DNA of 54,102 nucleotides, taken from NCBI GenBank assembly GCA_013815535.1, contig JACDGC010000002.1:1-54102 (forward strand), given 5' to 3'. Below are positions 11,673-54,008 of this stretch, piece after piece (position 1 is the first letter of the stretch; each line of letters begins with the position of its first letter). The stretch comes from Ktedonobacterales bacterium (GTDB lineage Bacteria; Chloroflexota; Ktedonobacteria; Ktedonobacterales; JACDGC01). A program made the position numbers and the translations under genes. The notes below the pieces were generated by a model that was not told the origin of the DNA, ran no database searches, and worked only from the letters and a program-made list of their open reading frames with translations.

Positions 11673-13877
11673 CTAACGGTATAACAGTTGTTCAGGGGTT
11701 ACTCCCAGCGCGACCGCCAGTCGCTCTACGGTTGGTTTGGTGGCTCGTCGCGTACAGTTTTCGAGTGTGCGGATGAACTCGGTGCGCATTCTCATTCTTC
11801 CGGCCAACTCCGTTTGGTCCCATTTCCGTCTCTTGCGCCACTCTGCAAGCAAAGGAACATACTGATTTTTTGGGAGGGCCACCAGCGTCCCATTCCATTC
11901 GCTGGCAAGCTGTTTCACCAGCGATTGAACTTGAGCGATGCGCTGCTGATGGTCGTGTTCATCCTCTCTTTGTGCAGATACGTCTGGCTCGGGTGATGCT
12001 CCCCTTCTTCGCTTTTTGGGAGTCGGCAAGGAGATGAGTGACCAGTGTTCACGCATCGCACTCAAGATGGAACGCCGCAATACAAGGAAATATTGGTCTC
12101 CAACACGGAGCCGTGCGGCGACCAACGTTGGAAGATACCGCTGCCACTCCTGCATCTCCCCAGCGGTCATCCCGTGTTCGCGTATCGCTTCGCCGGCAAA
12201 TTGATAGGTGGTGTGAAACCGCAGCACTGCCTGCCGTGGAATGACAGGCGCCGCAGTTCGTCCCGGTGACGCACGCAACAATCCCCGCTTGAGCAAGGTC
12301 GGAATACAAGCCACAGGACAGCCCAGGTCCTCGGCCACTTCCTCAGCGGTGCATTCTGTGGAGGGAGGATGCTCCACGAAGGACATGGTGGCCTCCACCA
12401 TCGCAGGGAGCGCCAGGACGTGGCAGAGACGCGAGCCCGGTTCTTCAACCCACAGTGGCAACCGGTGGACCAACACGGCCTCGATCAGGGCAGCGATACT
12501 ATCCGGCTCGTGGTCACACAGTCGGATACATGGGTCAGGACGTGCTGCCGCAGGAGCCTGAACGCAGGCCATGATTTGGTCAACCCCGGCCATGATGGCT
12601 TCCCATCTGAACCAGTAGATGAGCCGTGCCGCCGTCATCGCTAATCCCGCTGGGTGGAGAATATTCCGTTCCACGAGCCCATGGACGGTGGCCAGAGGCA
12701 CCCCCAGGATGTGTTCGGCGAGCCAGCGATCCATGACCCACTCGCCATGAGCAGGCTGGTGAGGCGGAAGTGTCACAAAGTACTGCTTCTTGAGGGCTGT
12801 GCGGGGACTCGGCGACCAGCGCCGTGCGGACGGTTGCCAGGATACGAGAGGACGTTCCTGGCGCAGGAAATCGGCGAAGGACTCGCGCAACCATGGGTAC
12901 GCTGGCGCGCGCTGGTGCCACTGCAACAACCAGCTCGAGAAGGCGACAAAGAGCCGTTCCTGATCCAGGGTGTGGAGGGTTTGCATGATACGAACGGGCC
13001 AGTGTGCCAGCAGGTCATAGCTGTAGGTGAGAATCGTACACCAGCGCGCAAAGTCGGGATAGTCGTAGCGCCCCCCTCCTCTTGCCGCGGTCCGCCGTTG
13101 CAGATGGCCCTCCGCCACTCCCGTATGCTTCCAGAAGAACTGACAGAGATCTTGCACGAATGCAAGGCTGAGCCAGTGTGGCAGCGCGTTCCAAGGCGCT
13201 TGCTGCCACACGGCTGGGAGCGGCGGCAAAGGGATCGTGTGGTTTCCTAGGCGATGCAGCAACCATAGGTTGCCGCTGTAGAGCATGGCCGGTGCCGCCA
13301 CAGCCACAACGGTTCGTAAATCGATGCCGCATGCGCCGCAATGAGCGAGATCGGGGCGCGTCATCGCCAAAGGCGCACCACAGGTCGGGCAGGCGTCGAG
13401 GAGCAGTGTCCCATGCCAGGGACAGGTGACGAGTTCCCGTAATCCCCAGTACACACGCCCGTAAGGAATCGGTCCCGCCAGACAACTTGGACAGACGCGC
13501 CCAGTCGGGTGGGGTAAGACGTAGTGTTTCAGCAAGTTCAACGGGAGGAAAGGATAATCCAGGGGCATCGCTTCTGCCACTTGTTGCTCAGCAGGACTCA
13601 ACCAACTCCGGCTCCACCGATGGACCGTGCAGGCTATGAGATCAGGAATGTCTTGATGGAGCAATTGCGCCAGCAACTGATAATCGCGATACCCGGTTAA
13701 GTGGGTGAGGGTGGCGGCGTGGATCTGATGCGTGCTGAGTTCAGGGCGCAAAATGAACGCCGTTTGCTGGTAGCCCATCGCGGTAGCACTTCGGCGCACC
13801 AGCGACTGGAGGTCTTCATCCGGTTGGCGTTCCACTCGGGCAGGCAGCGGAGCAGCGACGAACGGTGTAATCATCAT
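11673..13877 (-). CDS. tniQ: TniQ/TnsD-family target-selection protein with C-terminal XRE-type HTH (734 aa)
   Basis: ATG 13877 overlaps the tnsC TGA (ATGA). Cys-rich zinc-ribbon region CPSC..CPWH..CPTCGAP..CGACG. C-terminal WDQTELAGRMRMRTEFIRTLENCTRR..LAVALGVTPEQLLYR. Positioned after tnsC. Confidence 0.85.
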   Translation of the reverse strand: MMITPFVAAPLPARVERQPDEDLQSLVRRSATAMGYQQTAFILRPELSTHQIHAATLTHLTGYRDYQLLAQLLHQDIPDLIACTVHRWSRSWLSPAEQQVAEAMPLDYPFLPLNLLKHYVLPHPTGRVCPSCLAGPIPYGRVYWGLRELVTCPWHGTLLLDACPTCGAPLAMTRPDLAHCGACGIDLRTVVAVAAPAMLYSGNLWLLHRLGNHTIPLPPLPAVWQQAPWNALPHWLSLAFVQDLCQFFWKHTGVAEGHLQRRTAARGGGRYDYPDFARWCTILTYSYDLLAHWPVRIMQTLHTLDQERLFVAFSSWLLQWHQRAPAYPWLRESFADFLRQERPLVSWQPSARRWSPSPRTALKKQYFVTLPPHQPAHGEWVMDRWLAEHILGVPLATVHGLVERNILHPAGLAMTAARLIYWFRWEAIMAGVDQIMACVQAPAAARPDPCIRLCDHEPDSIAALIEAVLVHRLPLWVEEPGSRLCHVLALPAMVEATMSFVEHPPSTECTAEEVAEDLGCPVACIPTLLKRGLLRASPGRTAAPVIPRQAVLRFHTTYQFAGEAIREHGMTAGEMQEWQRYLPTLVAARLRVGDQYFLVLRRSILSAMREHWSLISLPTPKKRRRGASPEPDVSAQREDEHDHQQRIAQVQSLVKQLASEWNGTLVALPKNQYVPLLAEWRKRRKWDQTELAGRMRMRTEFIRTLENCTRRATKPTVERLAVALGVTPEQLLYR

Positions 13878-14806
13878 GCCCCCTTGAAGGCGGGGGTGAA
13901 GGGGTTGTCTTTGTTCTTGCCCATGATTGTCCCGGCCACACGCTCTTGATACGCCGCCGCGAGTAGTTCCAAAGAAATGCCATGGCACGGCGTGCGAATC
14001 GCGGCAAACGCCGCATGCCGCACGAGATGCATCACCCAGCCCAGGTAACCATTGGTGGCATAGAAGAAGCGATAGGCCATCGCTTCTTCGCCCAAGCCGC
14101 TGGGGTCGAGCGGTAACGCCGCATCGATGGTTCCCAGCAATTCACAGAATTCCGCAATGGTATCGTCCGGGCGAGCGCGATCCCACATGAAGGGGGTGAG
14201 CAGGCGCGGCGTGCCAAAACGCCGGTCGAGTTGGCTGTTGGCTGCGAAGATCTCCTGCATCTCCTGCGTGTGCCCAACGACGACCATCGGCACATGGGTT
14301 TCGAGTAAAATCGTCTTGAAGAAATCGGCCACCCGATGCGCGATTTGATGCTGCCGTTCTTTGTTGATGAGGTGCTGAAGTTCATCGATGATCACCATCT
14401 GGACTTGGCAGGCAGCCATCAGACGATAGATACGCATCGTCATGTTCCATTCCGTCCCGCGTGACGGGTTGGGATCGTGCAGCTTCGTCAGGATTGCCGC
14501 CGCCGCCGCTTTCATACTGGCATACGCCGGCACGATGACATAGAGATACGGAATGATCGTGGCCGTGGGAGTTTCTCGCTCGGGGGTGCGCGTCAGCCAA
14601 GTCCGTATCAAGGTCGATTTCCCCGCGCCGGTGTCGCCCATGATGGCAAGACACGGGGGCTCGTGGATACGGCTGGTGAGGCCGACCCGCGCGTACTGCG
14701 TGATCTCGCGGTACAGGGCATTAAACCGCTCATGCTCAATCAAGATGCTGTCGACCAGCGCGTAGCGCGCGTCGTCAGACAGGGCTTGCCATTCCTCGTG
14801 TTCCAT
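13874..14806 (-). CDS. tnsC: TnsC/TniB-type AAA+ transposition ATPase (310 aa)
   Basis: Walker A MGDTGAGKST and Walker B VQMVIIDELQHL. Size and position match TniB-like regulators. Confidence 0.85.
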   Translation of the reverse strand: MEHEEWQALSDDARYALVDSILIEHERFNALYREITQYARVGLTSRIHEPPCLAIMGDTGAGKSTLIRTWLTRTPERETPTATIIPYLYVIVPAYASMKAAAAAILTKLHDPNPSRGTEWNMTMRIYRLMAACQVQMVIIDELQHLINKERQHQIAHRVADFFKTILLETHVPMVVVGHTQEMQEIFAANSQLDRRFGTPRLLTPFMWDRARPDDTIAEFCELLGTIDAALPLDPSGLGEEAMAYRFFYATNGYLGWVMHLVRHAAFAAIRTPCHGISLELLAAAYQERVAGTIMGKNKDNPFTPAFKGA

Positions 14807-37911: not shown

Positions 37912-39999
37912 CTAGGACGCTGCAAGTGGTGCCAAGCGGGAGAGAACATCGGCCTGTGTCCAAGGACGAATGCACAATTCGCCATGGGTTTGCTCTTTGA
38001 GTGCTGCGGCTACGGTCGCAACTTCTGAAGAGCGTGGTGTGGCGGTCAACCCTGGCTCGGGCGTTTGTGTCAAAAGATATTGGACGTGCAAGAAAGCATG
38101 CGTTTCCTCACATGCCGCTAACGCACCGCGTAAATTGCTCCACCACCGTGCGTTGTCTGATTGCAATGTCAACAGGCGTAACAGGACGAGAATGCACGTT
38201 GCATAATCATGTAAGCCGGCAAAGCAATCTGCAAGATAGGCCAGGTGAGTCGTTTCCATTTCCGGTAAGAGTTCCGCATAACAGCTAATCGCTTGCCGAT
38301 ACCACCCCTGTTGCTGATAGAGGTGGCCTAAACGATGCACGATATAGCGTTCGGGCGTTGCGGCCTGTGCTTGCTCGAATAGACGAATCGCGGCGTCGTG
38401 GTGTCCTTCATCAGCAAGCATACTTCCATAATAGAATAGCGAAGCTGTTGAGGCATCGTCAGTGAGCTTCGTGGCTCCCACCAGTTCACGTGCCTGAGCA
38501 TCGGCCCCGTTAGCGCGATACACTAAATATAATTCTTTGACGATGAACATATCCTGTGGCTCACTGGCAAGCCATTGCTGGTAGGCACGCACGGCCACTT
38601 CGCCATAGGTGAGATCGCTGCGCCAGAGATGGCTGAGGGAAAGGGCGAGCAGTCGCAGCGCACGCCGATGTTCGGGCCGCAGGTCGACGGTGTGCTGCGC
38701 CCAATGTGCAGCAGTCGCGAAATCTTCACATTGATACGAGGCATACGCCAAGGCATAAGCTTCAGCGGGCATCTGCTGGACGGCTGGTATCCTGGCAAAT
38801 GCTTCGAGGAGCAGGTGTTGGGCATGACTTGGCTGGCCGCAACGAACCTCCGTCGCCGCCCAACAGCTCAGTGCTTGCCACCGCATTGGATCGCGTTGTA
38901 ATGCCGCGGCATATGCCGCATATTCTTCCTCATGGCGGCCCAAATGAAAAAGACACACGCCTTTGTTCGTCAATACTTGGCCCGCGAGCAACGCATCGGG
39001 ATCATGGGAGAGCGCATCATCATAATGAAGTAAGGCCTCTTCATAATAACCCAGTGCCTTGAGCGCATTGCCGTGGTTGTAATCGTTGTGGACTTTGGGC
39101 GGATAAGCGAGTTGCGCGCCAAGTGCGGCGAAAATTGCGGTAGCTTCCACGAGTAAGTGACGAGGTACTGGCGTGTGGGTATTCGTGTATTCGGTGAGAA
39201 TGCTGGCGCGAGTCCCCAGGTACTCGATCCCCACAGCGCCTTTGGCTTGGGCGGCGTTGATCGCGTGGAACGCATCATCAATAGCGTCACGCTCATACGC
39301 GAGCTTCGCGATAGCGAGATCGATCCGCCAATTCTGTGGTGCTTGGGCCGCTGCCGTCTGTAAGCGGGCGAGCATTGCGAGCTGTTGAGCAGAAAGTGGC
39401 AGCAGCGTTGGTTTCCGGGGAACAGGGGTGCCCGGTTGCGGCACCCCCTGAGCAATGTACGGATCAGGTTGGGCCAACTGCACCTGTTGTTCCTGCTCAA
39501 GATGCTGTCCGAGCCTGCGATAGGCGGCATCCAACACAACAGGTAATGTGCCAAGCTCGCCGCGTTGCAGCATGTGCGTGGCGGGAACAGGAATCGTGCG
39601 CATCCCGGCTCCTGTCAGCCACTGGGGATTGGCAGCAAGTTGGGCGGCAATCACCGGCTGGATATGCACCCAATACCCGCATTCGCGTGTGATGTCCCAC
39701 AGCACCAGGAACACTGGCCAGAGGATACGTTGCCATTGGCGTAAATGGACGACTTTTACGCGATACTGATACCCTTGTTTGTGCCCATATTTACTCACAT
39801 CATCGGTACTCTTGAGTTGAATGTACCCATCTTTGCCCGTCATCTCTCCCTGATGAAACGGATGGAGCAGAAAATCTTGCCCGTAATCGGCGGAAATCTT
39901 CGTCACACTCCATTGTGCCCGCTGAAAGCAGGCGCTTACCTGTGATTCACCGAGTTCATTGAAGATGTGTTGGAACGGTTTGCGTGAAGCGGCTGCCAT
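37912..39999 (-). CDS. DUF4365-like (PD-(D/E)xK-type) N-terminal domain fused to a long TPR array (695 aa)
   Basis: N-terminal GESQVSACFQRAQWSV..DYGQDFLL..GYIQLKSTD matches the DUF4365 pattern. About 400 aa of TPR-like repeats follow (EEALLHYDDAL, YAAYAAALQ, AAIRLFEQA, QAISCYAEL). Confidence 0.75.
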   Translation of the reverse strand: MAAASRKPFQHIFNELGESQVSACFQRAQWSVTKISADYGQDFLLHPFHQGEMTGKDGYIQLKSTDDVSKYGHKQGYQYRVKVVHLRQWQRILWPVFLVLWDITRECGYWVHIQPVIAAQLAANPQWLTGAGMRTIPVPATHMLQRGELGTLPVVLDAAYRRLGQHLEQEQQVQLAQPDPYIAQGVPQPGTPVPRKPTLLPLSAQQLAMLARLQTAAAQAPQNWRIDLAIAKLAYERDAIDDAFHAINAAQAKGAVGIEYLGTRASILTEYTNTHTPVPRHLLVEATAIFAALGAQLAYPPKVHNDYNHGNALKALGYYEEALLHYDDALSHDPDALLAGQVLTNKGVCLFHLGRHEEEYAAYAAALQRDPMRWQALSCWAATEVRCGQPSHAQHLLLEAFARIPAVQQMPAEAYALAYASYQCEDFATAAHWAQHTVDLRPEHRRALRLLALSLSHLWRSDLTYGEVAVRAYQQWLASEPQDMFIVKELYLVYRANGADAQARELVGATKLTDDASTASLFYYGSMLADEGHHDAAIRLFEQAQAATPERYIVHRLGHLYQQQGWYRQAISCYAELLPEMETTHLAYLADCFAGLHDYATCILVLLRLLTLQSDNARWWSNLRGALAACEETHAFLHVQYLLTQTPEPGLTATPRSSEVATVAAALKEQTHGELCIRPWTQADVLSRLAPLAAS

Positions 40000-45392: not shown

Positions 45393-45674
45393 ATGACCGG
45401 ACTGACCCTCTTTGGAGCCAGCGCCGTCACAACGATGCTGTTGGCGTACCTGCTGGAACGCCGCTCATCGTGGTGGGTCCTCACTTTTCGCTCCGAGACT
45501 ATGATGCGGGAGGAACGGATCGGGATGCTGGACGATATCCCGCCCATCTCTGAAGCAGAGCTAGCGGTGCTGGATCAGGAGGATGAAGAGCTAGCCTGGC
45601 TGTTCGAGGAACGAGGCCGAAAAAAGCGGGTAAGGAAGCAGACTACCGCAGACCTGGGAGACACCTCGGAGTAA
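45393..45674 (+). CDS. hypothetical small protein (one TM, then an acidic tail)
   Basis: The ORF starts 6 nt after the upstream stop. Coding status is weak. Confidence 0.35.
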   Translation: MTGLTLFGASAVTTMLLAYLLERRSSWWVLTFRSETMMREERIGMLDDIPPISEAELAVLDQEDEELAWLFEERGRKKRVRKQTTADLGDTSE

Positions 45675-45689
45675 GCCGCTTGGTCGGAA

Positions 45690-46070
45690 TATGTTTCGAA
45701 CCTTCGCGTAAAATTTTTTACGTGAAGGTTCGAAAAGCAAGCGCATCAGCCCAGGAAACCCGTTCGAACTTTCGAGCAAATTACCATGATGGGATATTTT
45801 GCGAAGGATCGAACAATTTTATGCGAAGGTTCAAAAGAGTGGTGTACTTGGGTAGCTGGCTTTGTAAGAGCGGTAGACGTATTTTATGCGAGCCGATAGG
45901 TGCGTCAGCACTTACCCGCAACCAGTGAAATAGTTGCGAACCTTGGCGGACATCCTTGTGCGTGGAGGGTCGAACACTGGGCATGTGATTTCAGGAAATA
46001 TGTTCGGAACTTGTCCTCAAGCTCGCACGCCTATTTGGGAAGCGCAAGATCATCGGAACTTCGTGTCCTA
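45690..46070. repeat. dense array (at least 9 copies, both orientations) of the TTTACGCGAAGGTTCGAAA motif
   Basis: Includes a 42-bp near-palindrome, TTTCGAACCTTCGCGTAAAA-TT-TTTTACGTGAAGGTTCGAAA (45694-45735). Further copies lie at about 45761, 45798, 45817, 45944, 45958 and 46001. Confidence 0.65.
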
Positions 46071-46273
46071 CCAATTCAGTTCGTCATTGACACAGAGCTG
46101 ACCTTTCTGCTTGATCAAAAATGGCATCTACCTCGTAGATTGCTGCCGATCTCCCGATCAACCTGGCCTATATTAGCCCGATAGATAGAGAAGCTCTGTG
46201 TCAACTTTGCCATGCGCCGATCTGCTTAGTGTCTCGTATCTAGCGCGAAGATCTCACGAAAATAACGAAGATG

Positions 46274-46314
46274 GCTTGCTTTTTGTGAGGTTGATTCAAC
46301 CTCACAAAAACTGG
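46274..46314. repeat. 41-bp inverted repeat, right copy
   Basis: GCTTGCTTTTTGTGAGGTTGATTCAACCTCACAAAAACTGG. Confidence 0.75.
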
Positions 46315-46825
46315 GGGGTAATTGGCTCTGTGGCAGGGATAAGAGGCCATAATAGTCATGCCTAGCAATGGTATTCGTAGGCAATACCCGGCGTGATTTT
46401 GCTCTTGAAGCATGCACGCACTTGGTGGTACAATTCAGGCGTTCATTTTTTCTGGTCTGCACCTATCCAGGTTGGTGTTGCTGCCTTTGGCGCAGGTATC
46501 CAACGCAGCGTGAAGTTCCTTTGCTGACCTTGTCGCAGGTCCTTCACCCAGGGTGTTTGTGATAGCTCCCATGTTCTCTGCTGCATGTGCGCATTCAACA
46601 TGGCCTATCTTCCGCTCGGATGTTGCTGTCTCTGCTGCATGTGCGCAAACAGCACCTATGAGCTTTCCCGGCTGGTTCACCCTCGGTGTGAGGATCGTCT
46701 GTTGAACGTTTTCCATGAAGAAGGAGGAAGGTTCCCATCTCGCACATCTGTCACGCAGCCTAGCGAGTTTTCGCGTCATCGCTCCATCACTCTGTTTCCT
46801 GGGAAAGGAGTATCCTTCCGCACCT

Positions 46826-47062
46826 ATGCGCTTCGTACCGGTTTTGTTTTTCCGCATACCGGCAGTGCTGATCTCGATGATTGTGGCGCTGATGATCATT
46901 CCCCTCCTCGTCTTTGGCCTGTTTCTGGGGATTGGTATCAGCTTTTTCCAGGCACTCTTCGCGGCATCACCCCTGGCTGGCACGATTGCTATCCTCGGTC
47001 TGTTGCTTTTGACGGGTGTTGGGATCACTTCCGTTGTTCGAGTAGTTCGCGCACACGCCTGA
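46826..47062 (+). CDS. small membrane protein (78 aa, 2-3 TM)
   Basis: MRFVPVLFFRIPAVLISMIVALMIIPLLVFGLFLGIGISFF... The Shine-Dalgarno is rather distant (15 nt). Confidence 0.4.
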   Translation: MRFVPVLFFRIPAVLISMIVALMIIPLLVFGLFLGIGISFFQALFAASPLAGTIAILGLLLLTGVGITSVVRVVRAHA

Positions 47063-47278
47063 TTCAAGCTCATTTCCTTGTTATGTTCCTGCGGGTTCCT
47101 AACGAGGTATGTCTCCTATTGCCTTTTTTCTCCTCATGTACCTGTGGCAGCCACCTTTCCTCCTGTGCTGCTGCTTCCCCCCCTTCATTCCTGTTGATGT
47201 GATGCACATCTGAGCCATGTTGCTCTGCCATCAGGGTTTGCTTGAGCCGTGGCCGCGGCTCGCTGGTGATAGCCGTTA

Positions 47279-47309
47279 CAGCCGAACTTCCTCCGGGGGT
47301 TCGGCTTTT
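47279..47309 (+). terminator. intrinsic terminator
   Basis: AGCCGAAC-(11 nt)-GTTCGGCT followed by TTTT. Confidence 0.6.
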
Positions 47310-47381
47310 TCGTTGTCTGTCGGCAGCGAGGCGCGGCTGCGCCATATTTCGCCCGGTATGGGCATTGTAAGGAGGCCAGTT

Positions 47382-47756
47382 ATGGCCATGCGCACTCCTC
47401 CCCCGTTTCCTCCCACTCCGAACGAGTTGCAGCTATTGGATTGGCTGCGGGAGACAGAACGACGTCAGAGCATTCCTCCGGGGAGCCTGGTTCCTGCTCT
47501 GCTCGTGACGTTGCAAACCATCAGTTCTGGTCGAGGGAATAAAAATTTGCTTGCTCGGCTTGCCGAGCTGGGGACCATGGGATCACCGCAACGGCAGACC
47601 GGGCTGCGCGTCATGCAAATCGTGATTGCGCTAGCTGTCGTTGCGCTCGCATGCTGTATCTTCACCTACGGAGCTGGCGCACTGATTGTCATCGCCAATC
47701 ACCACGTGGCCACGCCAACCGTGCCCGTACCGTTGACGCCAACGGTGCCACGTTAG
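47382..47756 (+). CDS. hypothetical protein (124 aa) with C-terminal TM anchor
   Basis: TAAGGAGG lies 6 nt upstream of the ATG. MAMRTPPPF... ends with the hydrophobic VMQIVIALAVVALACCIFTYGAGALIVIA. Confidence 0.6.
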   Translation: MAMRTPPPFPPTPNELQLLDWLRETERRQSIPPGSLVPALLVTLQTISSGRGNKNLLARLAELGTMGSPQRQTGLRVMQIVIALAVVALACCIFTYGAGALIVIANHHVATPTVPVPLTPTVPR

Positions 47757-47765
47757 CTTGCGGTG

Positions 47766-47804
47766 ATGAGGCGGAGCTTTGTCTCCGCCTCATTTGCTTG
47801 TTTT
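47766..47804 (+). terminator. intrinsic terminator
   Basis: ATGAGGCGGAG-(6 nt)-CTCCGCCTCAT followed by TTGCTTGTTTT. Confidence 0.6.
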
Positions 47805-47828
47805 CCAACAATGAAGGAGTTCACTGCG

Positions 47829-48149
47829 ATGGCAATGCGCGTTTGGCACCGCCGACACTCGTTGTTTGGTCTAGTCCCACAAGCGATGGATCCGGCGCTG
47901 TTTACCTGCGTGGCAGAATTGGCAACTGTGGATCCTGAACAGGCGTTTCGCTGGTCACAACATGCGGATCATGCTTGGCAGACGCAGCAGAATCGCGTCA
48001 TTCAATCCTTTGCTGCACACCCACGCTCGACGAGTGTGGGTGACATCTTGCAACAATGCTTGACCGGCACCTGCCTGCTCGTGTGTGCTGAAGGGTTTAC
48101 CGAACTGCCCGGCTGGGTATTTCCTGACCCAACGTCATCTTCTTGGTAA
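47829..48149 (+). CDS. hypothetical protein (106 aa)
   Basis: GAAGGAG lies 9 nt upstream. Starts MAMRVWHRRH... No family recognised. Confidence 0.55.
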   Translation: MAMRVWHRRHSLFGLVPQAMDPALFTCVAELATVDPEQAFRWSQHADHAWQTQQNRVIQSFAAHPRSTSVGDILQQCLTGTCLLVCAEGFTELPGWVFPDPTSSSW

Positions 48150-48260
48150 CGTGAGCGGAAGCTCTTTGTGGGACTCGCCAAAGTTATTGGTGAGTCCCAT
48201 TGTTTTGGGTCCCTTCCTGTACGCACATCGTGCTTTCGCCCTGCAGCGCTCGCTCCCCTC

Positions 48261-48348
48261 TTCCTATCCGTGGCTGCTGCTGCCACGCTGATGAGCCACC
48301 TTGAAACGGTTTCAGGGTTGGCACGCCTGAGCACAGGCGAAATAGGAA
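48261..48348 (+). ncRNA. hammerhead-ribozyme-like motif A (type III topology, expanded stem II)
   Basis: UUCCUAUC|CGUGGC(UGCUGCU)GCCACG-CUGAUGA-G[43 nt]C-GAAA-UAGGAA. Stem III is 7 bp (48261-67 / 48342-48) and stem I is 6 bp (48269-74 / 48282-87). Cleavage triplet AUC, with the predicted cut after 48268. Confidence 0.6.
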
Positions 48349-48456
48349 TCGCGGCGGACTGATGTTTACGTCCGCTTGCTCATGCACACCTCGACCACGG
48401 TGCTGGTTGAGAAAGGTTGGCGCGATCATGCTGTCTGTTTCCTGGTTACACGACAT

Positions 48457-48765
48457 GGCTGGGAGGCCACTGCCCCCAGTGAAAGGAGAATGGCCATGGC
48501 TTACGAGAAAATCTTGGGCGATATCATCGGCTTAGTGATATTGACGGGACGTTACCCTGCGTCCCCAAGTGAGAGGGAGTGGTACCTGTACAGCGCATTC
48601 GTCCGAAGGTTATTTGATAACTGGAAAAGCAATGGGGGGCTACCGCCACCTACTGATGAGGAATGTGAAGCCGCGCTCGCTGTTCGAGAGCGATTAATGG
48701 AAAGTATCTCCTCCGTTATTCAAGTCCCAGTAGCGTAGTTTGTCAATGGCGGTGGCCTCCCAGCC
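48457..48765 (+). repeat. 18-bp inverted repeat pair bracketing the 80-aa cistron (long-range RNA clamp candidate)
   Basis: GGCTGGGAGGCCACTGCC (48457-48474) pairs with GGCGGTGGCCTCCCAGCC (48748-48765): 17 Watson-Crick pairs plus 1 U-G on the + strand transcript. Confidence 0.6.
48496..48738 (+). CDS. hypothetical protein (80 aa)
   Basis: GAAAGGAGAA Shine-Dalgarno. ATG 48496 (or 48490). Ends ...QVPVA with the shared 3' sequence GTAGCGTAGTTTGT. Confidence 0.55.
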   Translation: MAYEKILGDIIGLVILTGRYPASPSEREWYLYSAFVRRLFDNWKSNGGLPPPTDEECEAALAVRERLMESISSVIQVPVA

Positions 48766-48936
48766 CTGTTGTGTTCCCCGCGCGGGCTGCCATCAGTATT
48801 TCCCCCGTGTTCATCGTCCCCCAGAATCCACCACCCCTTCACGCTGCCCGGCTGTAAATAGCAGCCATGCGGCATTGTGCTGTCGTTTGTGGGAAGGCGC
48901 GGTCCTCCCCATTTACCACCACCATTCCACGCCGCG

Positions 48937-49312
48937 ATCGGAGAGGCGGGCCACCGCCGACCCATCGAAAGGAGAACTCAATGCTGAAAGACACTGCGAA
49001 TTACGAGAAAGTTCCCCAAATTCTGGTGGCGGCTTTGGTCGTCATGAGGAGGGTCAAACGAATATGGGCGGATACGATGCCGCCTGAAATGGCCGCCGAA
49101 GCGATGCGGCGGTTTTCTGGGGATGATCTCCTGGCGCTTGCTCTGTGCGAGCTCGAAAAGATAGGTGCCCTTGATAATCCCACCTCTGACCAGGTGTGGA
49201 TGGCAAACCGTTGGCTCGACGTGTTGGTAGAGTGGTCGTTTGCTGAGGCTCGTCAATGTGGTGAGCCGATCGTAGCGTAGTTTGTTTATCGGCGGTGGTC
49301 CGCCTCTCCGAT
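48937..49312 (+). repeat. 24-bp inverted repeat pair bracketing the 99-aa cistron (long-range RNA clamp candidate)
   Basis: ATCGGAGAGGCGGGCCACCGCCGA (48937-48960) pairs with TCGGCGGTGGTCCGCCTCTCCGAT (49289-49312): 23 Watson-Crick pairs plus 1 G-U on the + strand transcript. Confidence 0.65.
48981..49280 (+). CDS. hypothetical protein (99 aa)
   Basis: GAAAGGAGAA Shine-Dalgarno 6 nt upstream. Ends ...EPIVA with the shared GTAGCGTAGTTTGT. Confidence 0.55.
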   Translation: MLKDTANYEKVPQILVAALVVMRRVKRIWADTMPPEMAAEAMRRFSGDDLLALALCELEKIGALDNPTSDQVWMANRWLDVLVEWSFAEARQCGEPIVA

Positions 49313-49324
49313 TGCCGCATAGCA

Positions 49325-49396
49325 CATCCATCCACGGCTGTTGCTGCCGTGCTGATGAGTCCCGCCGGACCCGCCTGAGCACAGGCGAAATGGATG
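49325..49396 (+). ncRNA. hammerhead-ribozyme-like motif B (type III topology, expanded stem II)
   Basis: CAUCCAUC|CACGGC(UGUUGCU)GCCGUG-CUGAUGA-G[26 nt]C-GAAA-UGGAUG. Stem III is 7 bp (49325-31 / 49390-96) and stem I is 6 bp (49333-38 / 49346-51). The predicted cut is after 49332. Confidence 0.6.
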
Positions 49397-49444
49397 GCAG
49401 AATCCCTGGCATGCTGGGTGACTCGCCCAGTCGTTGCCGCCATG

Positions 49445-49478
49445 AAAACCCGCACGCATCCCCATGCGTGCGGGTTTT
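49445..49478 (+). terminator. strong terminator-like hairpin immediately upstream of the csrA-like RBS
   Basis: AAAACCCGCACGCAT-CCCC-ATGCGTGCGGGTTTT. It ends 10 nt before GGAGG and 19 nt before ATG 49498. Confidence 0.6.
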
Positions 49479-49497
49479 GGCGTGTCATGGAGGAACC

Positions 49498-49839
49498 ATG
49501 ATCATCGTGCGACGGCCCGGCCAGGCCGTCTTCCTCGGCGACTACATGCTGGAACTCACCAGTACTGGTGGTCGCTTCGCGCGCTGGACCCTCACCGTCC
49601 CTCCGGAGATTCCCGTGCGCAAAGGGGACATGTTGCTTGCCCCCTGTCGGACCCGCAGCGTGCTGTTCTTTGGTCTCGATCCAGGCGATGCGGTCTGGAT
49701 CGACGACCGCATTGCGGTCGAACTCCGCCACTGTTCATCCCAGCACGCCACGCTCAGCGTGACGGCCCCCCGGCAAATCCTGGTGCTGCGCCAGGAACTG
49801 CTCACCTCCGCCACACCCTACCAGTACGCTCGCCGCTGA
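49498..49839 (+). CDS. CsrA-like protein with an internal tandem duplication of the CsrA fold (113 aa)
   Basis: Repeat 1 is MIIVRRPGQAVFLGDYMLELTSTGGRFARWTLTVPPEIPVRKGDML. Repeat 2 is VLFFGLDPGDAVWIDDRIAVELRHCSSQHATLSVTAPRQILVLRQELL. Both align to the CsrA pattern MLILTRRVGE.l.IGD.i.v.vl.v.g..VrlGi.AP..v.v.R.E. Confidence 0.65.
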   Translation: MIIVRRPGQAVFLGDYMLELTSTGGRFARWTLTVPPEIPVRKGDMLLAPCRTRSVLFFGLDPGDAVWIDDRIAVELRHCSSQHATLSVTAPRQILVLRQELLTSATPYQYARR

Positions 49840-49851
49840 GCGCACGCCAGA

Positions 49852-49889
49852 GCATGACCAGCGCGCCCAAACACCCGCGCTGGTCATGC
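49852..49889 (+). terminator. 13-bp stem-loop after the csrA-like gene (no U tract)
   Basis: GCATGACCAGCGC-(12 nt)-GCGCTGGTCATGC. Confidence 0.35.
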
Positions 49890-50112
49890 CATCTGCCACC
49901 CCCGACGGTTCTTTTGCTTTTCGTCAAGCACTTCCTCTCTTTTGTTCTTCCTCTTCATGTGCTTCTGTTATTCCCCCTGGCTCTTCTCCCCATCTGCCAC
50001 GCTCCTGGCTTTTCCTCACACGGACCCCCCTGTGGGTCGTTAGCGAGCAGACGCTGACGTTCCACAGGGGTGCCTGTCAAGGCGTCCCTATCTCCCTTTA
50101 AGGAGGGCACCG

Positions 50113-50337
50113 ATGATGCCCCCGATTCCACCGCCTGAGGAAACCCCTGGCGAGGCTGAGCTGTTGGCCTTGCTGCGCGTACTTGACGCGCAGGGTGGTG
50201 CCATGCCGGGTGACCATGCCCGGTATACCGCTGATCGTTTGCCCCTGATCATGGCAAACCTGCCGGTTGGCCTGAGTTGGCCGGCAGTCCTTGATTGGCT
50301 CTTGACCCGTTTCCAAACGGGCCAAGGTCTTCCCTAG
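50113..50337 (+). CDS. hypothetical protein (74 aa)
   Basis: TAAGGAGGG lies 7 nt upstream of ATGATG. No family recognised. Confidence 0.5.
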   Translation: MMPPIPPPEETPGEAELLALLRVLDAQGGAMPGDHARYTADRLPLIMANLPVGLSWPAVLDWLLTRFQTGQGLP

Positions 50338-50450
50338 TACGGTCGGGGCAGAGGCAACTCTGTCCCGCTGCGCGTGTTCTCTTCACCGGACCCTCGCATC
50401 GTTCCCTCGGCATACCCCCCTAAAACAGCGCGTAATTGAAGGAGAAGCTG

Positions 50451-50726
50451 ATGACCTCTGTTCGTGTGTTGATTGCTGCCAGCATGTTCGAGGTGGCCCT
50501 GTTTTGGGCCTACGGGTTGGGCGTTCCCCTCCCTGCCCTGGTTCTGGTGGTCATCCTCGGCCATCCGTTGACGATTCCCCTGATCGCGCATGTCCCGTTG
50601 TGGACCTCGGTGATCACCTTTGGGATGCTGATGGGAGGGGAGCGTCACGTTCCCTTTACCAACAGTTTGGTGGCACACCCTATCGGCTGTTTCTCGTCTT
50701 GGGGGCGGGTCTCTTTACGGGACTGA
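50451..50726 (+). CDS. small membrane protein; probably continues by a +1 frame change into 50650-50854
   Basis: GAAGGAG lies 7 nt upstream. There are 2-3 TM segments in this frame. The overlapping +1 frame (track ORF 50504..50854) encodes further clean TM helices (LFLVLGAGLFTGLTCVCLTILWFALIVLADGAFIVVLLL) but has no start of its own. Confidence 0.5.
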   Translation: MTSVRVLIAASMFEVALFWAYGLGVPLPALVLVVILGHPLTIPLIAHVPLWTSVITFGMLMGGERHVPFTNSLVAHPIGCFSSWGRVSLRD

Positions 50727-50960
50727 CCTGTGTCTGCCTCACCATCCTGTGGTTCGCGTTGATTGTCCTGGCTGACGGTGCCTTTATCGTGGTGCTGTTG
50801 CTCAGGCTGCTTGGTGGTCAGGCGATGCGGTGGTGGCATCGTGTGGCGCGATAACGGTCGCTTGTCTGGTAGATGCGTCGGGGGAATGATGCGAGCGCCT
50901 GGTGGCGTTCGGTTCGGAGTGGGTAGGAAGCGATTTTGTCCACTCTGGGTAATGGAAGTT

Positions 50961-50991
50961 GGGCGACCACAAGATGGTCGCCCTTTGTGTT
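50961..50991 (+). terminator. intrinsic terminator
   Basis: GGGCGACCA-(5 nt)-TGGTCGCCC followed by TTTGTGTT. Confidence 0.55.
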
Positions 50992-51019
50992 GCCCTCGTA
51001 AGGGCAGGAGGATGTTGGG

Positions 51020-51840: not shown

Positions 51841-53975
51841 GAGGAATACCGATCCGGTCTTGGGAAAGGAAGGTTCCCGGCCATGATCACCGAAGAAGAG
51901 CGCGAACAGATCCGGCGCGCCTACTTTCTTGACCATCACAGTGTTCGCCAGATTGCCCGGGATCTCCATCGCAGCGGGCGCACGGTGGCCAATGCGCTGT
52001 TTCCCGCCCCCACGGTGCCCTCGGCTCCGCGTCGCCCCCGCTCTGCTCCCGTCTTTGGACCCTTCCAGGCACGGGTGGAAACGTTCTTGCTCCAGAATGA
52101 GCGCCTCCCGCGCAAACAACGCTTCACCGCCCGCAAGATCTTTGAGCTGCTGCGTGCCGAGGGCTACACCGGCTGCGAGTCCCTGATTCGCGCCTTCAAA
52201 GCCGCCTGGCAGCGGGAACGGCATGCCCCCGACACCTTTCTCCCCTTGCAATTCGAACCCGGTCAGGATGCCCAAGTCGATTGGGGAGAGGCCCAGGCGA
52301 CCATTAATGGCATCCCCCAGACGGTGCAGTTCTTTGTCATGCGGCTGTGCTACTCACGGCGCCTCTTTGTCATGGCCTTCCCCAGTCAGAAACAGGAAAG
52401 CTTCTTTTACGGGCATGTACTGGCCTTTGCCCATTTCGGCGGCGTCCCCACGCGCATCAGCTACGACAATCTGGCGACCGCCGTCAAGTTGGCCTTTGAC
52501 CACGGGCGGACGCGACACGAAAACCGCACGTTTGTCTCGTTTCGCAGCCATTACCTCTTCGACTCCCATTTCTGCACGCCTGGTGAGGGTCATGAGAAGG
52601 GCGGCGTCGAAAGTGCCGTGGGATATGCGCGCCGCAATTTCCTCGTCCCGCCGCCCGACGTCGCCTCCTTTGACGCACTCAACCTCCATCTGCTACAAGC
52701 GTGCTTGCGCGACGACCAGCGCAAGGTCGCCCGTACCCAACCAACCATCGGCGAAAACTGGGAAGAAGAACGCCCGCTGCTCATCCCCTTACCGCCCTTT
52801 GCCTACGATTGCTGTACCGTCACGACCGCACAACTCACGCCCTACAGCCAAGCCACCTTTGAGACCAACCGCTATTCCGTGCCCGTTCAGCGCGCTCGTC
52901 GGGACGTGACCGTCAAGGCCTACCCCTTCCATGTCGATCTCCTCGATCACACCACGCTGCTGGCGCGGCATCCGCGCTGTTACGACCGCGAGCAAGATAT
53001 TTTTGATCCGTTGCATTACCTGGCCTTGCTCGAACAGCGTCCGGGAGCGTTTGACTACGCGAAACCCATACAGGCTTGGCGCAAGGGCTGGCCCCCGTCC
53101 TACCACCTCATGCTGCGCAACTTGCAGGACAAGTGGCCGGGGGGGCGCGGGGTGCAGGAATTCGTGCGCATCCTGCGCCTTCACCAGGAATATCCTGCCG
53201 CTCTCGTCCAGTCAGCCATCGAACAGGCCATTGCCTACGGATGTATCCATCTCGACGGCGTCTTGCATTGTCTCCACCAACTCATTGAGCCGTCGCCGCC
53301 TGAGCCGATGCTCCCCACCACCGATCCGTTGCCCTTGCGCGAAGTGGGTACGCAGCCCATTGACCTAGCCCGCTACGAATTGCTGCTCAAACGTCCTGGC
53401 TAAAGGAGATCGCCGTCATGGAGTCGCAAGAGTTACTCGAAAGCTACCTGCGCCAGCTGCATCTGCCCACGTTTTTGCAGAACTATCAGGCGTTTGCCCA
53501 GGATGCGGCACGCGGGAATATGTCCAATGAGCGGTTTCTCCTGGCCTTGTGTGAAGCGGAAGTGCTGCAACGCGATGCCAAGCGTATCGCGGCGGCGGTT
53601 GCCTACGCGCGCGTGCCCATCTTCAAAGACTTGGCGAGTTTTGATTTTAGCCTGATTCAGGGTGTCACGAAAGCGCGCGTCCTCGAACTCATGCAGGGCG
53701 GCTACATGACCCAGGCAGAAACCGTCATCTTGATTGGGATTCCGGGGCTCGGTAAATCCCATATCGCCACGGTCCTCGCGCTGGCCGCGTGCCAGCAAGG
53801 GAAACGAGTGCGCTTTTGGGGTACGGCGAAACTGGTCGAAGCGTTGGAAACCGCCCGCAAGGATCTGCGCTTGTCGAAATTCCTCGCCAGTCTCGCCAAG
53901 CATGATCTCATCGTGCTCGACGAGTTTGGCTTTCTCCCTTTTTCTCCCGATGGCTCCCAACTGTTGTTTCAAGTC
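51742..53975 (+). mobile_element. IS21-family insertion sequence, 3'-truncated (left boundary approximate)
   Basis: An istA-istB gene pair. The candidate left terminus TGTTAGTCAAACTACGG near 51742 is inferred, not proven. IstB similarity stops after ...LLFQV at 53975. Confidence 0.7.
51883..53403 (+). CDS. istA: IS21-family transposase IstA
   Basis: N-terminal HTH (EEEREQIRRAYFLDHHSVRQIARDL), a DDE core (QVDWGE ... SYDNLATAV ... GHEKGGVESAV) and a conserved C-terminal domain. Confidence 0.9.
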   Translation: MITEEEREQIRRAYFLDHHSVRQIARDLHRSGRTVANALFPAPTVPSAPRRPRSAPVFGPFQARVETFLLQNERLPRKQRFTARKIFELLRAEGYTGCESLIRAFKAAWQRERHAPDTFLPLQFEPGQDAQVDWGEAQATINGIPQTVQFFVMRLCYSRRLFVMAFPSQKQESFFYGHVLAFAHFGGVPTRISYDNLATAVKLAFDHGRTRHENRTFVSFRSHYLFDSHFCTPGEGHEKGGVESAVGYARRNFLVPPPDVASFDALNLHLLQACLRDDQRKVARTQPTIGENWEEERPLLIPLPPFAYDCCTVTTAQLTPYSQATFETNRYSVPVQRARRDVTVKAYPFHVDLLDHTTLLARHPRCYDREQDIFDPLHYLALLEQRPGAFDYAKPIQAWRKGWPPSYHLMLRNLQDKWPGGRGVQEFVRILRLHQEYPAALVQSAIEQAIAYGCIHLDGVLHCLHQLIEPSPPEPMLPTTDPLPLREVGTQPIDLARYELLLKRPG

Positions 53976-54008
53976 TGCTCACCAAGACCAGCAAACTACA
54001 GACCATGA
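53418..54008 (+). pseudogene. istB: IS21-family helper ATPase IstB, truncated after Walker B
   Basis: LLALCEAEV..R, Walker A GIPGLGKSH and Walker B LIVLDEFGFLP are present. The expected ...LLFQLISRRYE...SN continuation is replaced by CSPRPANYRP-stop. Confidence 0.8.

What the first reader, a model, noticed from the sequence alone, without database searches (positions are those of the whole stretch)
48261..48348. Hammerhead-ribozyme-like motif A in an intergenic region of the small-gene module
All three catalytic-core boxes are present in the order expected for a type III hammerhead on the + strand:
- stem III 5' strand UUCCUAU
- cleavage triplet AUC (predicted cut after 48268)
- stem I hairpin CGUGGC-UGCUGCU-GCCACG
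- CUGAUGA, then G...C closing the stem II region, then GAAA
- stem III 3' strand AUAGGAA

Stem III is 7 bp including the A15.1-U16.1 pair.

The stem II region is unusual. Between A9 and G12 there are two hairpins, a variable one and the invariant GCCUG-AGCA-CAGGC, instead of a single helix. Only a 3-bp GCC/GGC closing helix is possible, and it competes with the invariant hairpin. If active, this would be a structural variant of the hammerhead.
Basis: partly seen in the sequence, partly recalled or inferred. Interest (0 to 1): 0.75.

Follow-up and report, generated by a model that had tools for sequence, protein, structure and literature searches.

The report
Hammerhead ribozyme with inserted extra hairpin
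The motif is very likely a real self-cutting hammerhead RNA, one of two flanking a pair of small genes in a mobile-DNA island. It belongs to a phage-borne group that carries an extra hairpin spliced into the normally uninterrupted catalytic core, a layout I could not find described.

Summary
Window 48261-48348 (+) has every hammerhead core nucleotide in type III order, a 6-bp stem I and a 7-bp stem III. A second copy lies at 49325-49396. No dinucleotide shuffle of the window gave two such motifs.

A 93%-identical locus from another sample keeps both copies, with two compensatory double substitutions in stem I of copy A. Pattern scans of viral contigs recovered 24 distinct sequences with the same layout. 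Stems I, II and III all covary.

The "invariant" hairpin GCCUG-AGCA-CAGGC is the true stem II. It covaries across the family, always closes with G10.1-C11.1 next to G12, and its loop pairs with three bases of loop I. The variable hairpin (two hairpins in some relatives) is an insertion between A9 and G10.1. Canonical relatives that are otherwise identical carry a single U there.

Rfam misses these RNAs (18 bits against a cutoff of 48.5), but it also misses their canonical relatives.

The likely role is cutting a polycistronic transcript after C48268 and C49332. Cleavage itself is untested. I rate this a new variant of a known kind, of moderate interest.

The parts
48261..48348 (+). Hammerhead A, whole ribozyme (type III order: cleavage-site block, CUGAUGA block, GAAA block)
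   Evidence: Sequence read; descriptor hit; four-helix minimum-free-energy fold, z = -4.27; custom model R1 scores 70.7 bits (it was in the training set); kept in ortholog L323 1551-1634.
48261..48267 (+). Stem III 5' strand UUCCUAU (U48267 = U16.1)
   Evidence: Pairs with 48342-48348. Stem III covaries in the family, 6 of 7 pairs with double changes.
48268..48268 (+). C17; predicted cleavage between 48268 and 48269
   Evidence: C at this position in 24/24 expanded relatives. C or A in canonical relatives. The cleavage site is inferred by analogy with hammerheads.
48269..48287 (+). Stem I (CGUGGC/GCCACG) with 7-nt loop I UGCUGCU (48275-48281). Loop bases G48279, C48280 and U48281 are predicted to pair with the loop of stem II.
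   Evidence: All 6 pairs covary in the family. Ortholog L323 has two compensatory double changes, U-A to C-G and G-C to A-U. Loop-loop covariation.
48288..48294 (+). Core CUGAUGA (C3-A9)
   Evidence: Invariant in all family members, though the search patterns required it.
48295..48324 (+). Inserted hairpin IIa (48295-48322, 12 bp with one bulged U, loop CGG) plus 2-nt linker AC
   Evidence: Folds alone at -15.3 kcal/mol. Relatives have 1 or 2 hairpins of unrelated sequence here, 14-37 nt. Canonical twins have a single U instead. Substitutions in L323 are structure-neutral.
48325..48338 (+). True stem II (GCCUG/CAGGC; G48325-C48338 = G10.1-C11.1) with loop AGCA (48330-48333)
   Evidence: Exact repeat at 49373-49386. 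Four of 5 pairs covary in the family and the closing G-C is invariant in 22/22. The same stem II sequence occurs in canonical and expanded twins.
48339..48348 (+). G12-A13-A14 (48339-48341), then stem III 3' strand AUAGGAA (A48342 = A15.1)
49325..49396 (+). Hammerhead B. Stem III CAUCCAU/AUGGAUG; C17 = 49332 (cut after 49332); stem I 49333-49338/49346-49351; loop I UGUUGCU; CUGAUGA 49352-49358; inserted hairpin GUCC-CGCC-GGAC 49359-49370 plus linker CC; stem II 49373-49386; GAA 49387-49389.
   Evidence: (z = -3.68). Identical in ortholog L323 2619-2686.
48496..48738 (+). Small ORF 1 (80 aa from the second ATG; unknown function), first cistron between the two ribozymes
   Evidence: Ribosome-binding site AAAGGAGAA upstream. 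Conserved in L323 with 4 amino-acid differences. No Pfam hit.
48981..49280 (+). Small ORF 2 (99 aa; unknown function), second cistron between the two ribozymes
   Evidence: 85% identical homolog P0002. Substitutions biased to third codon positions, 10/6/18. No Pfam hit.
49498..49839 (+). CsrA-like ORF (113 aa), the cistron downstream of hammerhead B
   Evidence: Pfam PF02599 CsrA, E = 2.2e-07, 31.2 bits against a cutoff of 27. Conserved in L323.

Best explanation
A (48261-48348) and B (49325-49396) are self-cleaving type III hammerhead ribozymes of a clade found in phages and other mobile elements.

Each has the standard core (C3-A9, G12-A14, A15.1-U16.1, C17), a 6-bp stem I with a 7-nt loop, and a 5-bp stem II capped by AGCA. 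The first three loop II bases pair with the last three bases of loop I. That contact would hold stems I and II side by side, as in other natural hammerheads.

What is unusual is a hairpin inserted into the core strand between A9 and G10.1. The three-way junction becomes a four-way junction, and a five-way junction in relatives with two hairpins.

Transcribed as part of a + strand polycistronic RNA, the ribozymes would cut after C48268 and C49332. This would release a 1064-nt ORF1-ORF2 RNA with a 5'-OH and a 2',3'-cyclic phosphate. It would also separate that RNA from upstream RNA and from the downstream hairpin and CsrA-like cistron. Because these are type III ribozymes, almost the whole folded ribozyme stays at the 5' end of the downstream product.

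Shown: the motif, its second copy, family conservation and covariation, which hairpin is stem II, and that the other hairpin is an insertion.

Inferred: catalysis, the exact cut site, transcription of the region, and the effect on gene expression.
For: - **More than chance.** Exactly two hits in the window; shuffles gave a mean of 0.095 and never 2.
- **Orthologous locus.** L323 is 93% identical over window 48253-49897 and keeps both copies. Within A, four of the eight substitutions form two compensatory pairs in stem I, and two fall in the inserted hairpin (one turns a pair into a G-U wobble, one is in the bulged U). The other two fall in stem III: one gives a C-A mismatch and one unpairs the outermost pair.
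- **Family.** 24 distinct sequences with the same architecture in the window and viral contigs. On 22 of them, 99.8% of cells are paired, 17 of 21 pairs show changes on both sides, the covariation score is 0.60 against 0.14 shuffled, and slid registers give 32-44%.
- **Which hairpin is stem II.** The hairpin next to GAAA has an invariant G-C closing pair (22/22 and 37/37). Canonical L262 and expanded L070 are identical except for a 17-nt insertion after CUGAUGA, and L199 and L066 share the same stem II.
- **Loop-loop pairing.** In a sample not selected on the loops, 86.5% of cells are paired against 69.5 +/- 2.3 shuffled (0/500). Sixteen cells have double changes against 3.1 expected. Six complementary types occur: GCU:AGC, GCC:GGC, GCG:CGC, UCU:AGA, ACU:AGU, AUC:GAU.
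- **Link to known hammerheads.** Rfam Hammerhead_3 gives below-cutoff hits to relatives: 28.7-35.9 bits for L063, L083, L044 and L045, and 33.1 for L020. The variants share contigs with canonical type III copies (L069, L037), and with a type II hammerhead scoring above its gathering cutoff in L119.
- **Genomic setting.** Intergenic and on the same strand as flanking small genes. One relative sits 17 nt upstream of an anti-restriction gene. Perreault et al. 2011 (PMC3088659) report clustered, active hammerheads in bacteria that flank the anti-restriction gene ardA and process polycistronic RNA.
Against: - No cleavage, transcription or RNA-end data exist for this locus.
- Rfam Hammerhead_3 gives only 18 bits (E = 0.12) on copy A when 131 nt are searched, and nothing at the gathering score.
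- The insertion interrupts the strand next to A9 and G10.1, close to the active site. Eckert et al. 2023 (PMC10085705) state that no known hammerhead alignment has more than 1-2 nt inserted there. Activity therefore cannot be assumed from canonical relatives.
- The family alignments were gathered with patterns and filters that required the core boxes and paired stems. The percentage paired is partly by construction; only the diversity of pair types is independent evidence.
- Loop-loop pairing fails in some members, for example the L149 group (ACU:AGC) and L303, L305 and L308.
- Stem III of copy A has a C-A mismatch in the ortholog.
Confidence: 0.72

Rival explanations
1. A hammerhead-derived RNA that no longer cleaves. 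The hairpin inserted next to A9/G10.1 has disabled catalysis, and the fold is kept for another job, such as a stable 5' or intercistronic structure or a protein-binding site.
For: The insertion lies in a core strand where published alignments show no insertions longer than 1-2 nt (PMC10085705). Perreault et al. 2011 found that some core insertions strongly reduce activity. No experimental data exist. Rfam scores are low.
Against: Positions needed only for catalysis (C3, U4, G5, A6, G8, G12, A13, A14, C17) are unchanged in all 24 distinct expanded sequences. Meanwhile the stems have turned over many times. The loop-loop contact that promotes the active fold is also kept. The insertion arose or was kept in several sublineages and in one- and two-hairpin forms, which is unlikely for dead copies. 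Part of the core invariance was imposed by the search patterns.
Confidence: 0.12
2. A conditional (gated) hammerhead. The inserted hairpin is a regulatory module, a protein- or ligand-binding or folding switch, that sets when the ribozyme cuts.
For: The insertion sits at the one core position where canonical relatives already tolerate an unpaired nucleotide. It is next to the A9/G10.1 region. Its presence in 16 of 40 distinct sequences of one clade suggests it is more than neutral.
Against: The hairpins have no conserved sequence, length (3-12 bp) or loop. Loops include plain GNRA-type tetraloops (GAAA, GCAA). This is the opposite of what a specific binding site would show. No associated conserved protein was seen.
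Confidence: 0.1
3. Alternative topology. The variable hairpin next to CUGAUGA is the real stem II. The conserved hairpin is an insertion before G12, or stem II is the 3-bp GCC/GGC helix that Rfam's model and the first reader drew.
For: The variable hairpin directly follows A9 and usually closes with G-C. Rfam's Hammerhead_3 alignment pairs the first three bases of the variable hairpin with the last three of the conserved one.
Against: Canonical twins share the conserved hairpin, not the variable one. The pair next to G12 is an invariant G-C. The conserved hairpin's loop is the one that covaries with loop I. The GCC/GGC helix cannot form in L001, L179, L144, L119, L049, L046, L105, L036 or L169. 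The variable hairpin closes with C-G in the two-hairpin forms.
Confidence: 0.04
4. Not an RNA element at all: a chance resemblance, part of a protein-coding sequence, or a DNA-level repeat or recombination site.
For: An ORF (48168-48362) formally spans copy A. Homology with L323 starts 8 nt upstream of copy A, so the site coincides with a recombination boundary.
Against: Shuffles never give two hits. Substitution is by compensating base pairs, not by codon position. The motif recurs in contigs with no other detectable DNA similarity to the window. The spanning ORF has no support.
Confidence: 0.02

Closest known systems
Canonical type III hammerhead ribozymes of phages and bacteria (Rfam RF00008, clan CL00010; survey of Perreault et al. 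2011, PMC3088659)
   Same: Same core nucleotides, block order, A15.1-U16.1 and C17, and G10.1-C11.1. Same 6-bp stem I with a 7-nt loop, and the same AGCA-type stem II loop that pairs with loop I. Same genomic habit: intergenic, clustered, and in early or anti-restriction regions of phages and mobile elements. Canonical twins differ only by the insertion.
   Different: A hairpin, or two hairpins, of 14-37 nt including linker sits between A9 and G10.1. Canonical relatives have 0 or 1 nt there. The junction is four- or five-way instead of three-way. The window copies score far below the Rfam gathering cutoff.
Non-circularly permuted hammerheads, types SGC and CSG (Eckert, Friedrich, Weinberg & Weinberg 2023, PMC10085705)
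   Same: Natural hammerheads whose connectivity departs from the classic three-way junction, found by bioinformatics.
   Different: Those keep each of the three blocks intact and change their order. Here the order is the classic S-C-G (type III), but the CUGAUGA block itself is interrupted. That paper assumed this does not occur.
Pseudoknot hammerhead (PK hammerhead, PDB 8YDC; Zhan et al. 2024, PMC11300833)
   Same: A hammerhead with an additional helix and Watson-Crick tertiary pairing.
   Different: In the PK hammerhead, helix II is replaced by a pseudoknot formed with the loop of an extra helix IV attached to helix I. Here helix II is a normal hairpin next to G12, and the extra helix branches from the core strand after A9.
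Discontinuous Clec2 hammerhead and engineered stem II aptazymes
   Same: Hammerheads that carry large extra sequence yet keep the core (PMC6765202; PMC12192606).
   Different: In those, as far as I know, the extra sequence replaces or extends a helix end (a loop). The strand from A9 to G10.1 stays continuous. Here the insertion is at the junction itself.

Membership tests
Hammerhead ribozyme, type III (Rfam RF00008) | Conserved core nucleotides C3 U4 G5 A6 N7 G8 A9 and G12 A13 A14 | tested here: met
   CUGAUGA at 48288-48294 and 49352-49358; GAA at 48339-48341 and 49387-49389. Unchanged in 24 distinct relatives, though the search patterns required them.
Hammerhead ribozyme, type III (Rfam RF00008) | A15.1-U16.1 pair followed by an unpaired H17 (not G) at the cleavage site | tested here: met
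   U48267-A48342 with C48268; U49331-A49390 with C49332. The U-A pair is 22/22. H17 is C in all expanded relatives and C or A in canonical ones.
Hammerhead ribozyme, type III (Rfam RF00008) | Helices I, II and III around the core, supported by covariation, with the open end at helix III | tested here: met
   helix III 6 of 7 pairs, helix I 6 of 6 and helix II 4 of 5 with changes on both sides. Slid controls give 32-44% paired. Compensatory changes in ortholog L323. Caveat: the selection filters required pairing.
Hammerhead ribozyme, type III (Rfam RF00008) | G10.1-C11.1 closing helix II directly next to G12 | tested here: met
   G-C in 22/22 and 37/37 for the hairpin that abuts GAAA.
Hammerhead ribozyme, type III (Rfam RF00008) | CUGAnGA contiguous with the 5' strand of helix II (no more than 1-2 nt inserted; "Block C" of Eckert et al. 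2023) | tested here: not met
   30 nt (copy A) and 14 nt (copy B) lie between A9 and G10.1; the range in relatives is 14-37 nt. This is an empirical regularity of known alignments rather than a mechanistic definition.
Hammerhead ribozyme, type III (Rfam RF00008) | Tertiary contact between helix I and helix II loops | tested here: met
   Three-base-pair loop I: loop II pairing. 86.5% paired against 69.5% shuffled (0/500), with six complementary types. In the window this is G-C-U with A-G-C in both copies.
Hammerhead ribozyme, type III (Rfam RF00008) | Score at or above the Rfam gathering threshold (48.5 bits) | tested here: not met
   No hit at the gathering score. 18.0 bits, E = 0.12, when only 131 nt are searched. 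The test has little force: canonical relatives score 32.9-46.7 bits, also below the cutoff.
Hammerhead ribozyme, type III (Rfam RF00008) | Site-specific self-cleavage giving 2',3'-cyclic phosphate and 5'-OH ends | not testable with these tools
   Needs in vitro transcription and cleavage assays, or RNA-end mapping.
PK hammerhead (helix II replaced by a pseudoknot; PDB 8YDC) | No helix II hairpin; its place is taken by a pseudoknot with the loop of a helix IV attached to helix I | tested here: not met
   A covarying 5-bp helix II hairpin is present next to G12. The extra hairpin follows A9, not helix I. Architecture taken from PMC11300833.
Non-circularly permuted hammerheads (types SGC, CSG, GCS) | Block order other than the three circular permutations | tested here: not met
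   The order here is cleavage site, then CUGAUGA, then GAAA, which is SCG or type III.
Other self-cleaving ribozyme classes in Rfam (twister, twister-sister, pistol, hatchet, HDV-like and others) | Match to the family covariance model | tested here: not met
   No such hit in the window at the gathering score. None at E up to 10 in 47000-50000 or in 48240-48370.

The most novel reading that the evidence does not exclude
The position between A9 and G10.1 is a natural expansion port of the hammerhead core. A whole sublineage of phage hammerheads works as four- and five-way junctions. The added helices are not neutral: they tune or gate cleavage through folding kinetics, a bound protein, or a contact near the A9/G10.1 metal site. 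If so, these would be natural examples of what engineers build as aptazymes. It would also mean that block-based and Rfam-based searches systematically miss part of hammerhead diversity.
Probability: 0.15. Interest if true: 0.7.

Novelty: new variant of a known kind. Interest (0 to 1): 0.48.

Why it matters
Hammerheads are the textbook small ribozyme. Current search strategies assume that the CUGAnGA box runs straight into helix II.

This locus and its phage relatives show natural, selected hammerhead-type RNAs in which that strand is interrupted by one or two helices. In one clade, sampled without regard to the insertion, about 40% of distinct sequences have this form.

If they cleave, three things follow:
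- The catalytic core tolerates a multi-helix junction right beside the A9/G10.1 region. That is useful for structural work and for designing switchable ribozymes.
- Descriptor-based and Rfam-threshold surveys under-count hammerheads in phages and mobile elements.
- Matched natural pairs with and without the insertion, such as L262 and L070, offer a ready experiment on what the extra helix does.

For the window itself, the finding marks a probable RNA-processing cassette. Two ribozymes bracket two small genes in a low-GC island next to an IS21 element.

Tried and rejected
- **Rfam over the whole window at the gathering score:** nothing. At E up to 10 over 47000-50000, only chance hits such as snoRNA and miRNA models, and no hammerhead.
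- **Exact and relaxed patterns built on the window's stem II sequence (CUGAGCACAG):** viral contigs gave only L001. The remaining 25 loci, judged by eye, have no paired stem I or III next to the match, and I treat them as chance.
- **BLAST against GenBank phages and PLSDB plasmids:** no match to the region. The only hits were to an unrelated cation-transporter gene. A family member also gave no match.
- **tblastx and blastn of L020 against the window:** no real similarity. The shared ribozyme is therefore not due to overall relatedness.
- **PHROGs and Pfam on the neighbouring small ORFs:** no hits except a CsrA-like domain. The window is bacterial chromosome, not a phage genome.
- **Model-fitted alignment A5:** unsuitable for counting the loop-loop pairs, because 4-bp stem II members were pushed into insert columns. 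I used rule-extracted fixed-length segments instead.
- **Literature searches** for a hammerhead with an inserted hairpin, a four-way junction or an extra helix found nothing relevant. The library lacks most subscription-journal papers, so this is not proof that the variant is undescribed.
- **Rejected readings:** the 3-bp GCC/GGC stem II, the variable hairpin as stem II, the PK hammerhead, and a permuted hammerhead.

Full report

Yes.

A descriptor for a type III hammerhead was run on both strands of the whole window. It required H17, a stem I hairpin abutting CUGANGA, GAAA within 150 nt, and a stem III that includes A15.1-U16.1. It finds this site and one more, at 49325-49396, and nothing else.

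In 200 dinucleotide-preserving shuffles the lenient descriptor hit 0.095 times on average and never twice. The strict version, with both stems at least 6 bp, never hit.

Each copy folds on its own into the same four-helix junction, with z-scores of -4.3 and -3.7.

**2. Related sequences**

The two window copies share the 14-mer GCCUGAGCACAGGC. Otherwise they differ in every helix in a compensating way.

Searching public collections for that 14-mer plus GAAA found one phage contig (L001 = L020; IMG/VR 3300019360_000004). It has no other similarity to the window. Wider scans of metagenomes and genomes built on the same stem II sequence returned only that contig plus loci I judged to be chance matches.

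Two looser viral scans were more productive:
- One fixed only the core boxes and the two loop motifs.
- The other fixed only the core boxes and a GUGU/ACAC stem III.

After filtering for paired stems, these gave 24 distinct sequences of the same architecture.

A protein search with the ORF between the two ribozymes found one homolog. Its contig, L323, is 93% identical to window 48253-49897 and unrelated outside that block. L323 keeps both ribozymes:
- Copy B is identical.
- In copy A, stem I carries two compensatory double substitutions (U-A to C-G and G-C to A-U).
- The two changes in the inserted hairpin are structure-neutral. One creates a G-U pair and the other falls in the bulged U.
- Stem III has two changes. 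One creates a C-A mismatch and one unpairs the outermost pair.

**3. Anatomy: which hairpin is stem II?**

On a 22-sequence alignment (A2) the proposed pairs are 99.8% standard. Seventeen of 21 pairs show changes on both sides. The covariation score is 0.60 against 0.14 in shuffles. Sliding the partner by 1-3 columns drops pairing to 32-44%.

The search filters required paired stems, so the percentage paired is partly by construction. The variety of pair types is not, and neither is the collapse on sliding.

Four observations identify the hairpin that abuts GAAA as the real stem II:
- It covaries across the family: GCCUG/CAGGC, GCCCA/UGGGC, GGCGG/CCGCC, GACCU/AGGUC, GGCCC/GGGCC, GGUGC/GCACC.
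- Its closing pair next to G12 is G-C in 22/22 sequences and in 37/37.
- Canonical type III hammerheads in other viral contigs have exactly this stem II and no extra hairpin. L262 and L070 are identical through stems III, I and II and both loops, except that L262 has a single U where L070 has GCGCAAUCCUGCGCCUU-G. L199 and L066 are a second such pair.
- Its loop pairs with loop I (section 4).

The variable hairpin is therefore an insertion between A9 and G10.1. Every insert folds into one hairpin plus a 2-4 nt linker, or into two abutting hairpins with no linker. The junction is thus four-way or five-way.

It cannot form in many members and can be dismissed.

**4. Loop-loop contact**

I used the two scans that did not constrain the loops. 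From each sequence I took the last three bases of the 7-nt loop I and the three bases before the terminal A of loop II.

- 29 of 40 distinct sequences are fully Watson-Crick complementary.
- Six different complementary combinations occur: GCU:AGC, GCC:GGC, GCG:CGC, UCU:AGA, ACU:AGU, AUC:GAU.
- Shuffling partners among the 15 distinct types gives 1.5 complementary types on average, and reaches 6 in only 6 of 5000 trials.

The counting tool, run on fixed-length segments extracted by rule (A6), gives 86.5% paired against 69.5 +/- 2.3 shuffled (0/500). It counts 16 cells with changes on both sides against 3.1 +/- 1.6. Slid registers give 16-52%.

Some members do not fit, namely the L149 group and L303, L305 and L308.

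Watson-Crick loop-loop pairing that holds stems I and II together is an established feature of many natural hammerheads (Perreault et al. 2011, PMC3088659). Both window copies have the majority combination.

**5. Relation to known hammerheads**

Rfam's Hammerhead_3 model gives nothing at its gathering score. It gives 18 bits on copy A when only 131 nt are searched.

That carries little weight:
- Expanded relatives score 28.7-35.9 bits.
- Canonical members of the same phage clade also fall short of the 48.5-bit cutoff, at 32.9-46.7 bits.

The expanded ribozymes share contigs with canonical type III copies (L069, L072, L073; L037 has three). In L119 one shares a contig with a type II hammerhead above Rfam's cutoff.

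Those with a 5-bp stem II and an AGCA loop usually have one unpaired U, A or G between A9 and G10.1. That is the very position of the insertion.

In the clade sampled without regard to the insertion, 16 of 40 distinct sequences are expanded.

**6. Is the variant already described?**

I found no description of it. Eckert et al. 2023 state that in all known hammerhead alignments no insertion longer than one or two nucleotides lies between CUGAnGA and the adjacent stems. They built their block model on that (PMC10085705).

Two other variants are different things:
- The pseudoknot hammerhead replaces helix II with a pseudoknot (PMC11300833).
- The permuted types reorder intact blocks.

Other literature searches found nothing relevant. 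The searchable library is incomplete. Earlier large collections may also contain such sequences drawn as long stem II loops, so "undescribed" is provisional.

**7. Context and likely function**

The window is bacterial chromosome. It carries transporters, a PLP enzyme, a histidine kinase and a TniQ-type protein.

The ribozymes sit in a lower-GC stretch of small + strand genes next to an IS21 element at 51883-54008. The order along the + strand is:
- hammerhead A
- ORF1 (48496-48738)
- ORF2 (48981-49280)
- hammerhead B
- a strong palindromic hairpin (49445-49478)
- a CsrA-like ORF (49498-49839)

All three ORFs are conserved in L323. ORF2 and the CsrA-like ORF show third-position-biased substitution.

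In viral contigs the expanded ribozymes are intergenic and on the same strand as their neighbours, often 5-25 nt upstream of a start codon or about 20 nt after a stop. One precedes an anti-restriction gene. In L020 the ribozyme lies in the leader of an operon that diverges from a helix-turn-helix repressor-like gene, which I identified by eye from the sequence.

This matches what is known of bacterial and phage hammerheads. They occur clustered, flank small genes including ardA, and process polycistronic RNA in vitro and in E. coli (PMC3088659; review PMC6765202).

The inferred mechanism is co-transcriptional cleavage after C48268 and C49332. This would yield a 1064-nt ORF1-ORF2 RNA and uncouple its fate from upstream RNA and from the downstream hairpin and CsrA-like cistron. 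Transcription, cleavage and the consequences for stability or translation are all inferred, not shown.

**8. Rivals**

- A catalytically dead derivative is the main alternative (about 0.12). Against it, catalysis-specific nucleotides and the loop-loop contact are retained while the helices have turned over.
- A gated ribozyme (about 0.10) is attractive, but the hairpins have no conserved sequence, size or loop.
- The alternative topologies and non-RNA explanations are contradicted.

**9. Verdict**

It is a hammerhead in mechanism and ancestry, but it breaks one regularity of all described hammerhead alignments.

I class it as a new variant of a known kind, with moderate interest (0.48). It is a useful and testable structural surprise for ribozyme specialists and a warning for search methods. 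It is not a new kind of system.

Noticed in passing
window 48253-49897 versus L323 1541-3193: The 93%-identical block shared with the only homologous contig begins 8 nt upstream of hammerhead A and ends about 60 nt after the CsrA-like stop codon. The flanks are unrelated. The ribozyme therefore sits exactly at a cassette or recombination boundary.
   Followed up: partly
window 49445-49478: A perfect 15-bp palindromic hairpin (AAAACCCGCACGCAU-CCCC-AUGCGUGCGGGUUUU) lies between hammerhead B and the CsrA-like ORF. It looks like a terminator on both strands. If it terminates + strand transcripts, cleavage at B would remove it from the ORF1-ORF2 RNA.
   Followed up: no
window 48168-48200; also 47280-47306 and 47765-47794: Terminator-like hairpins followed by U-rich tails on the + strand. 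The nearest is 60 nt upstream of hammerhead A. No sigma-70-like promoter was found in 47000-51000.
   Followed up: no
window 45400-48150: GC drops from about 66% to 48-58%. The listed ORFs translate to Cys/Arg/Ser-rich products that do not look like real proteins, and none has a Pfam hit. This may be non-coding or foreign DNA of unknown nature upstream of the ribozyme cassette.
   Followed up: no
window 49498-49839: A 113-aa protein with a CsrA domain match only in its C-terminal half (residues 60-104). Its N-terminus (MIIVRRPGQAVFLGD) also resembles the start of CsrA, so it may be a tandem or fused CsrA-like protein on a mobile island.
   Followed up: no
window 51883-54008; 11673-13988; 37912-39999; 341-2914: Other mobile or defence-like genes in the window: IS21 istA/istB; a TniQ plus helix-turn-helix protein beside large ORFs (possibly a Tn7- or Tn5053-like unit); a DUF4365-TPR protein; and a STAND-NTPase-TPR protein.
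   Followed up: no
L161 3470-3536 (-) and L177 2573-2639 (+): A different expanded layout: CUGAUGA-U-GGCCC-[GGUCA-GU-UGACC]-CGCA-GGGCC-GAAA. Here the extra hairpin sits inside the stem II loop, 5' of the conserved xGCA, rather than before stem II.
   Followed up: no
L119 3184-3260 (+); L037 9731-11748 (-); L069 10729-11442 (-): Ribozyme clusters in phage contigs. L119 has a type II hammerhead above Rfam's cutoff 2 kb from an expanded type III. L037 has three canonical type III copies within 2 kb. L069 has one expanded and one canonical copy 600 nt apart.
   Followed up: partly
canonical relatives, e.g. L262 8355-8407, L185 7867-7919, L222, L223: Canonical type III hammerheads with a 5-bp stem II and an AGCA loop usually carry one unpaired nucleotide (U, less often A or G) between A9 and G10.1. 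Those with a 4-bp stem II and a 5-6 nt loop carry none. Rfam's Hammerhead_3 gathering score misses most of this phage clade.
   Followed up: partly
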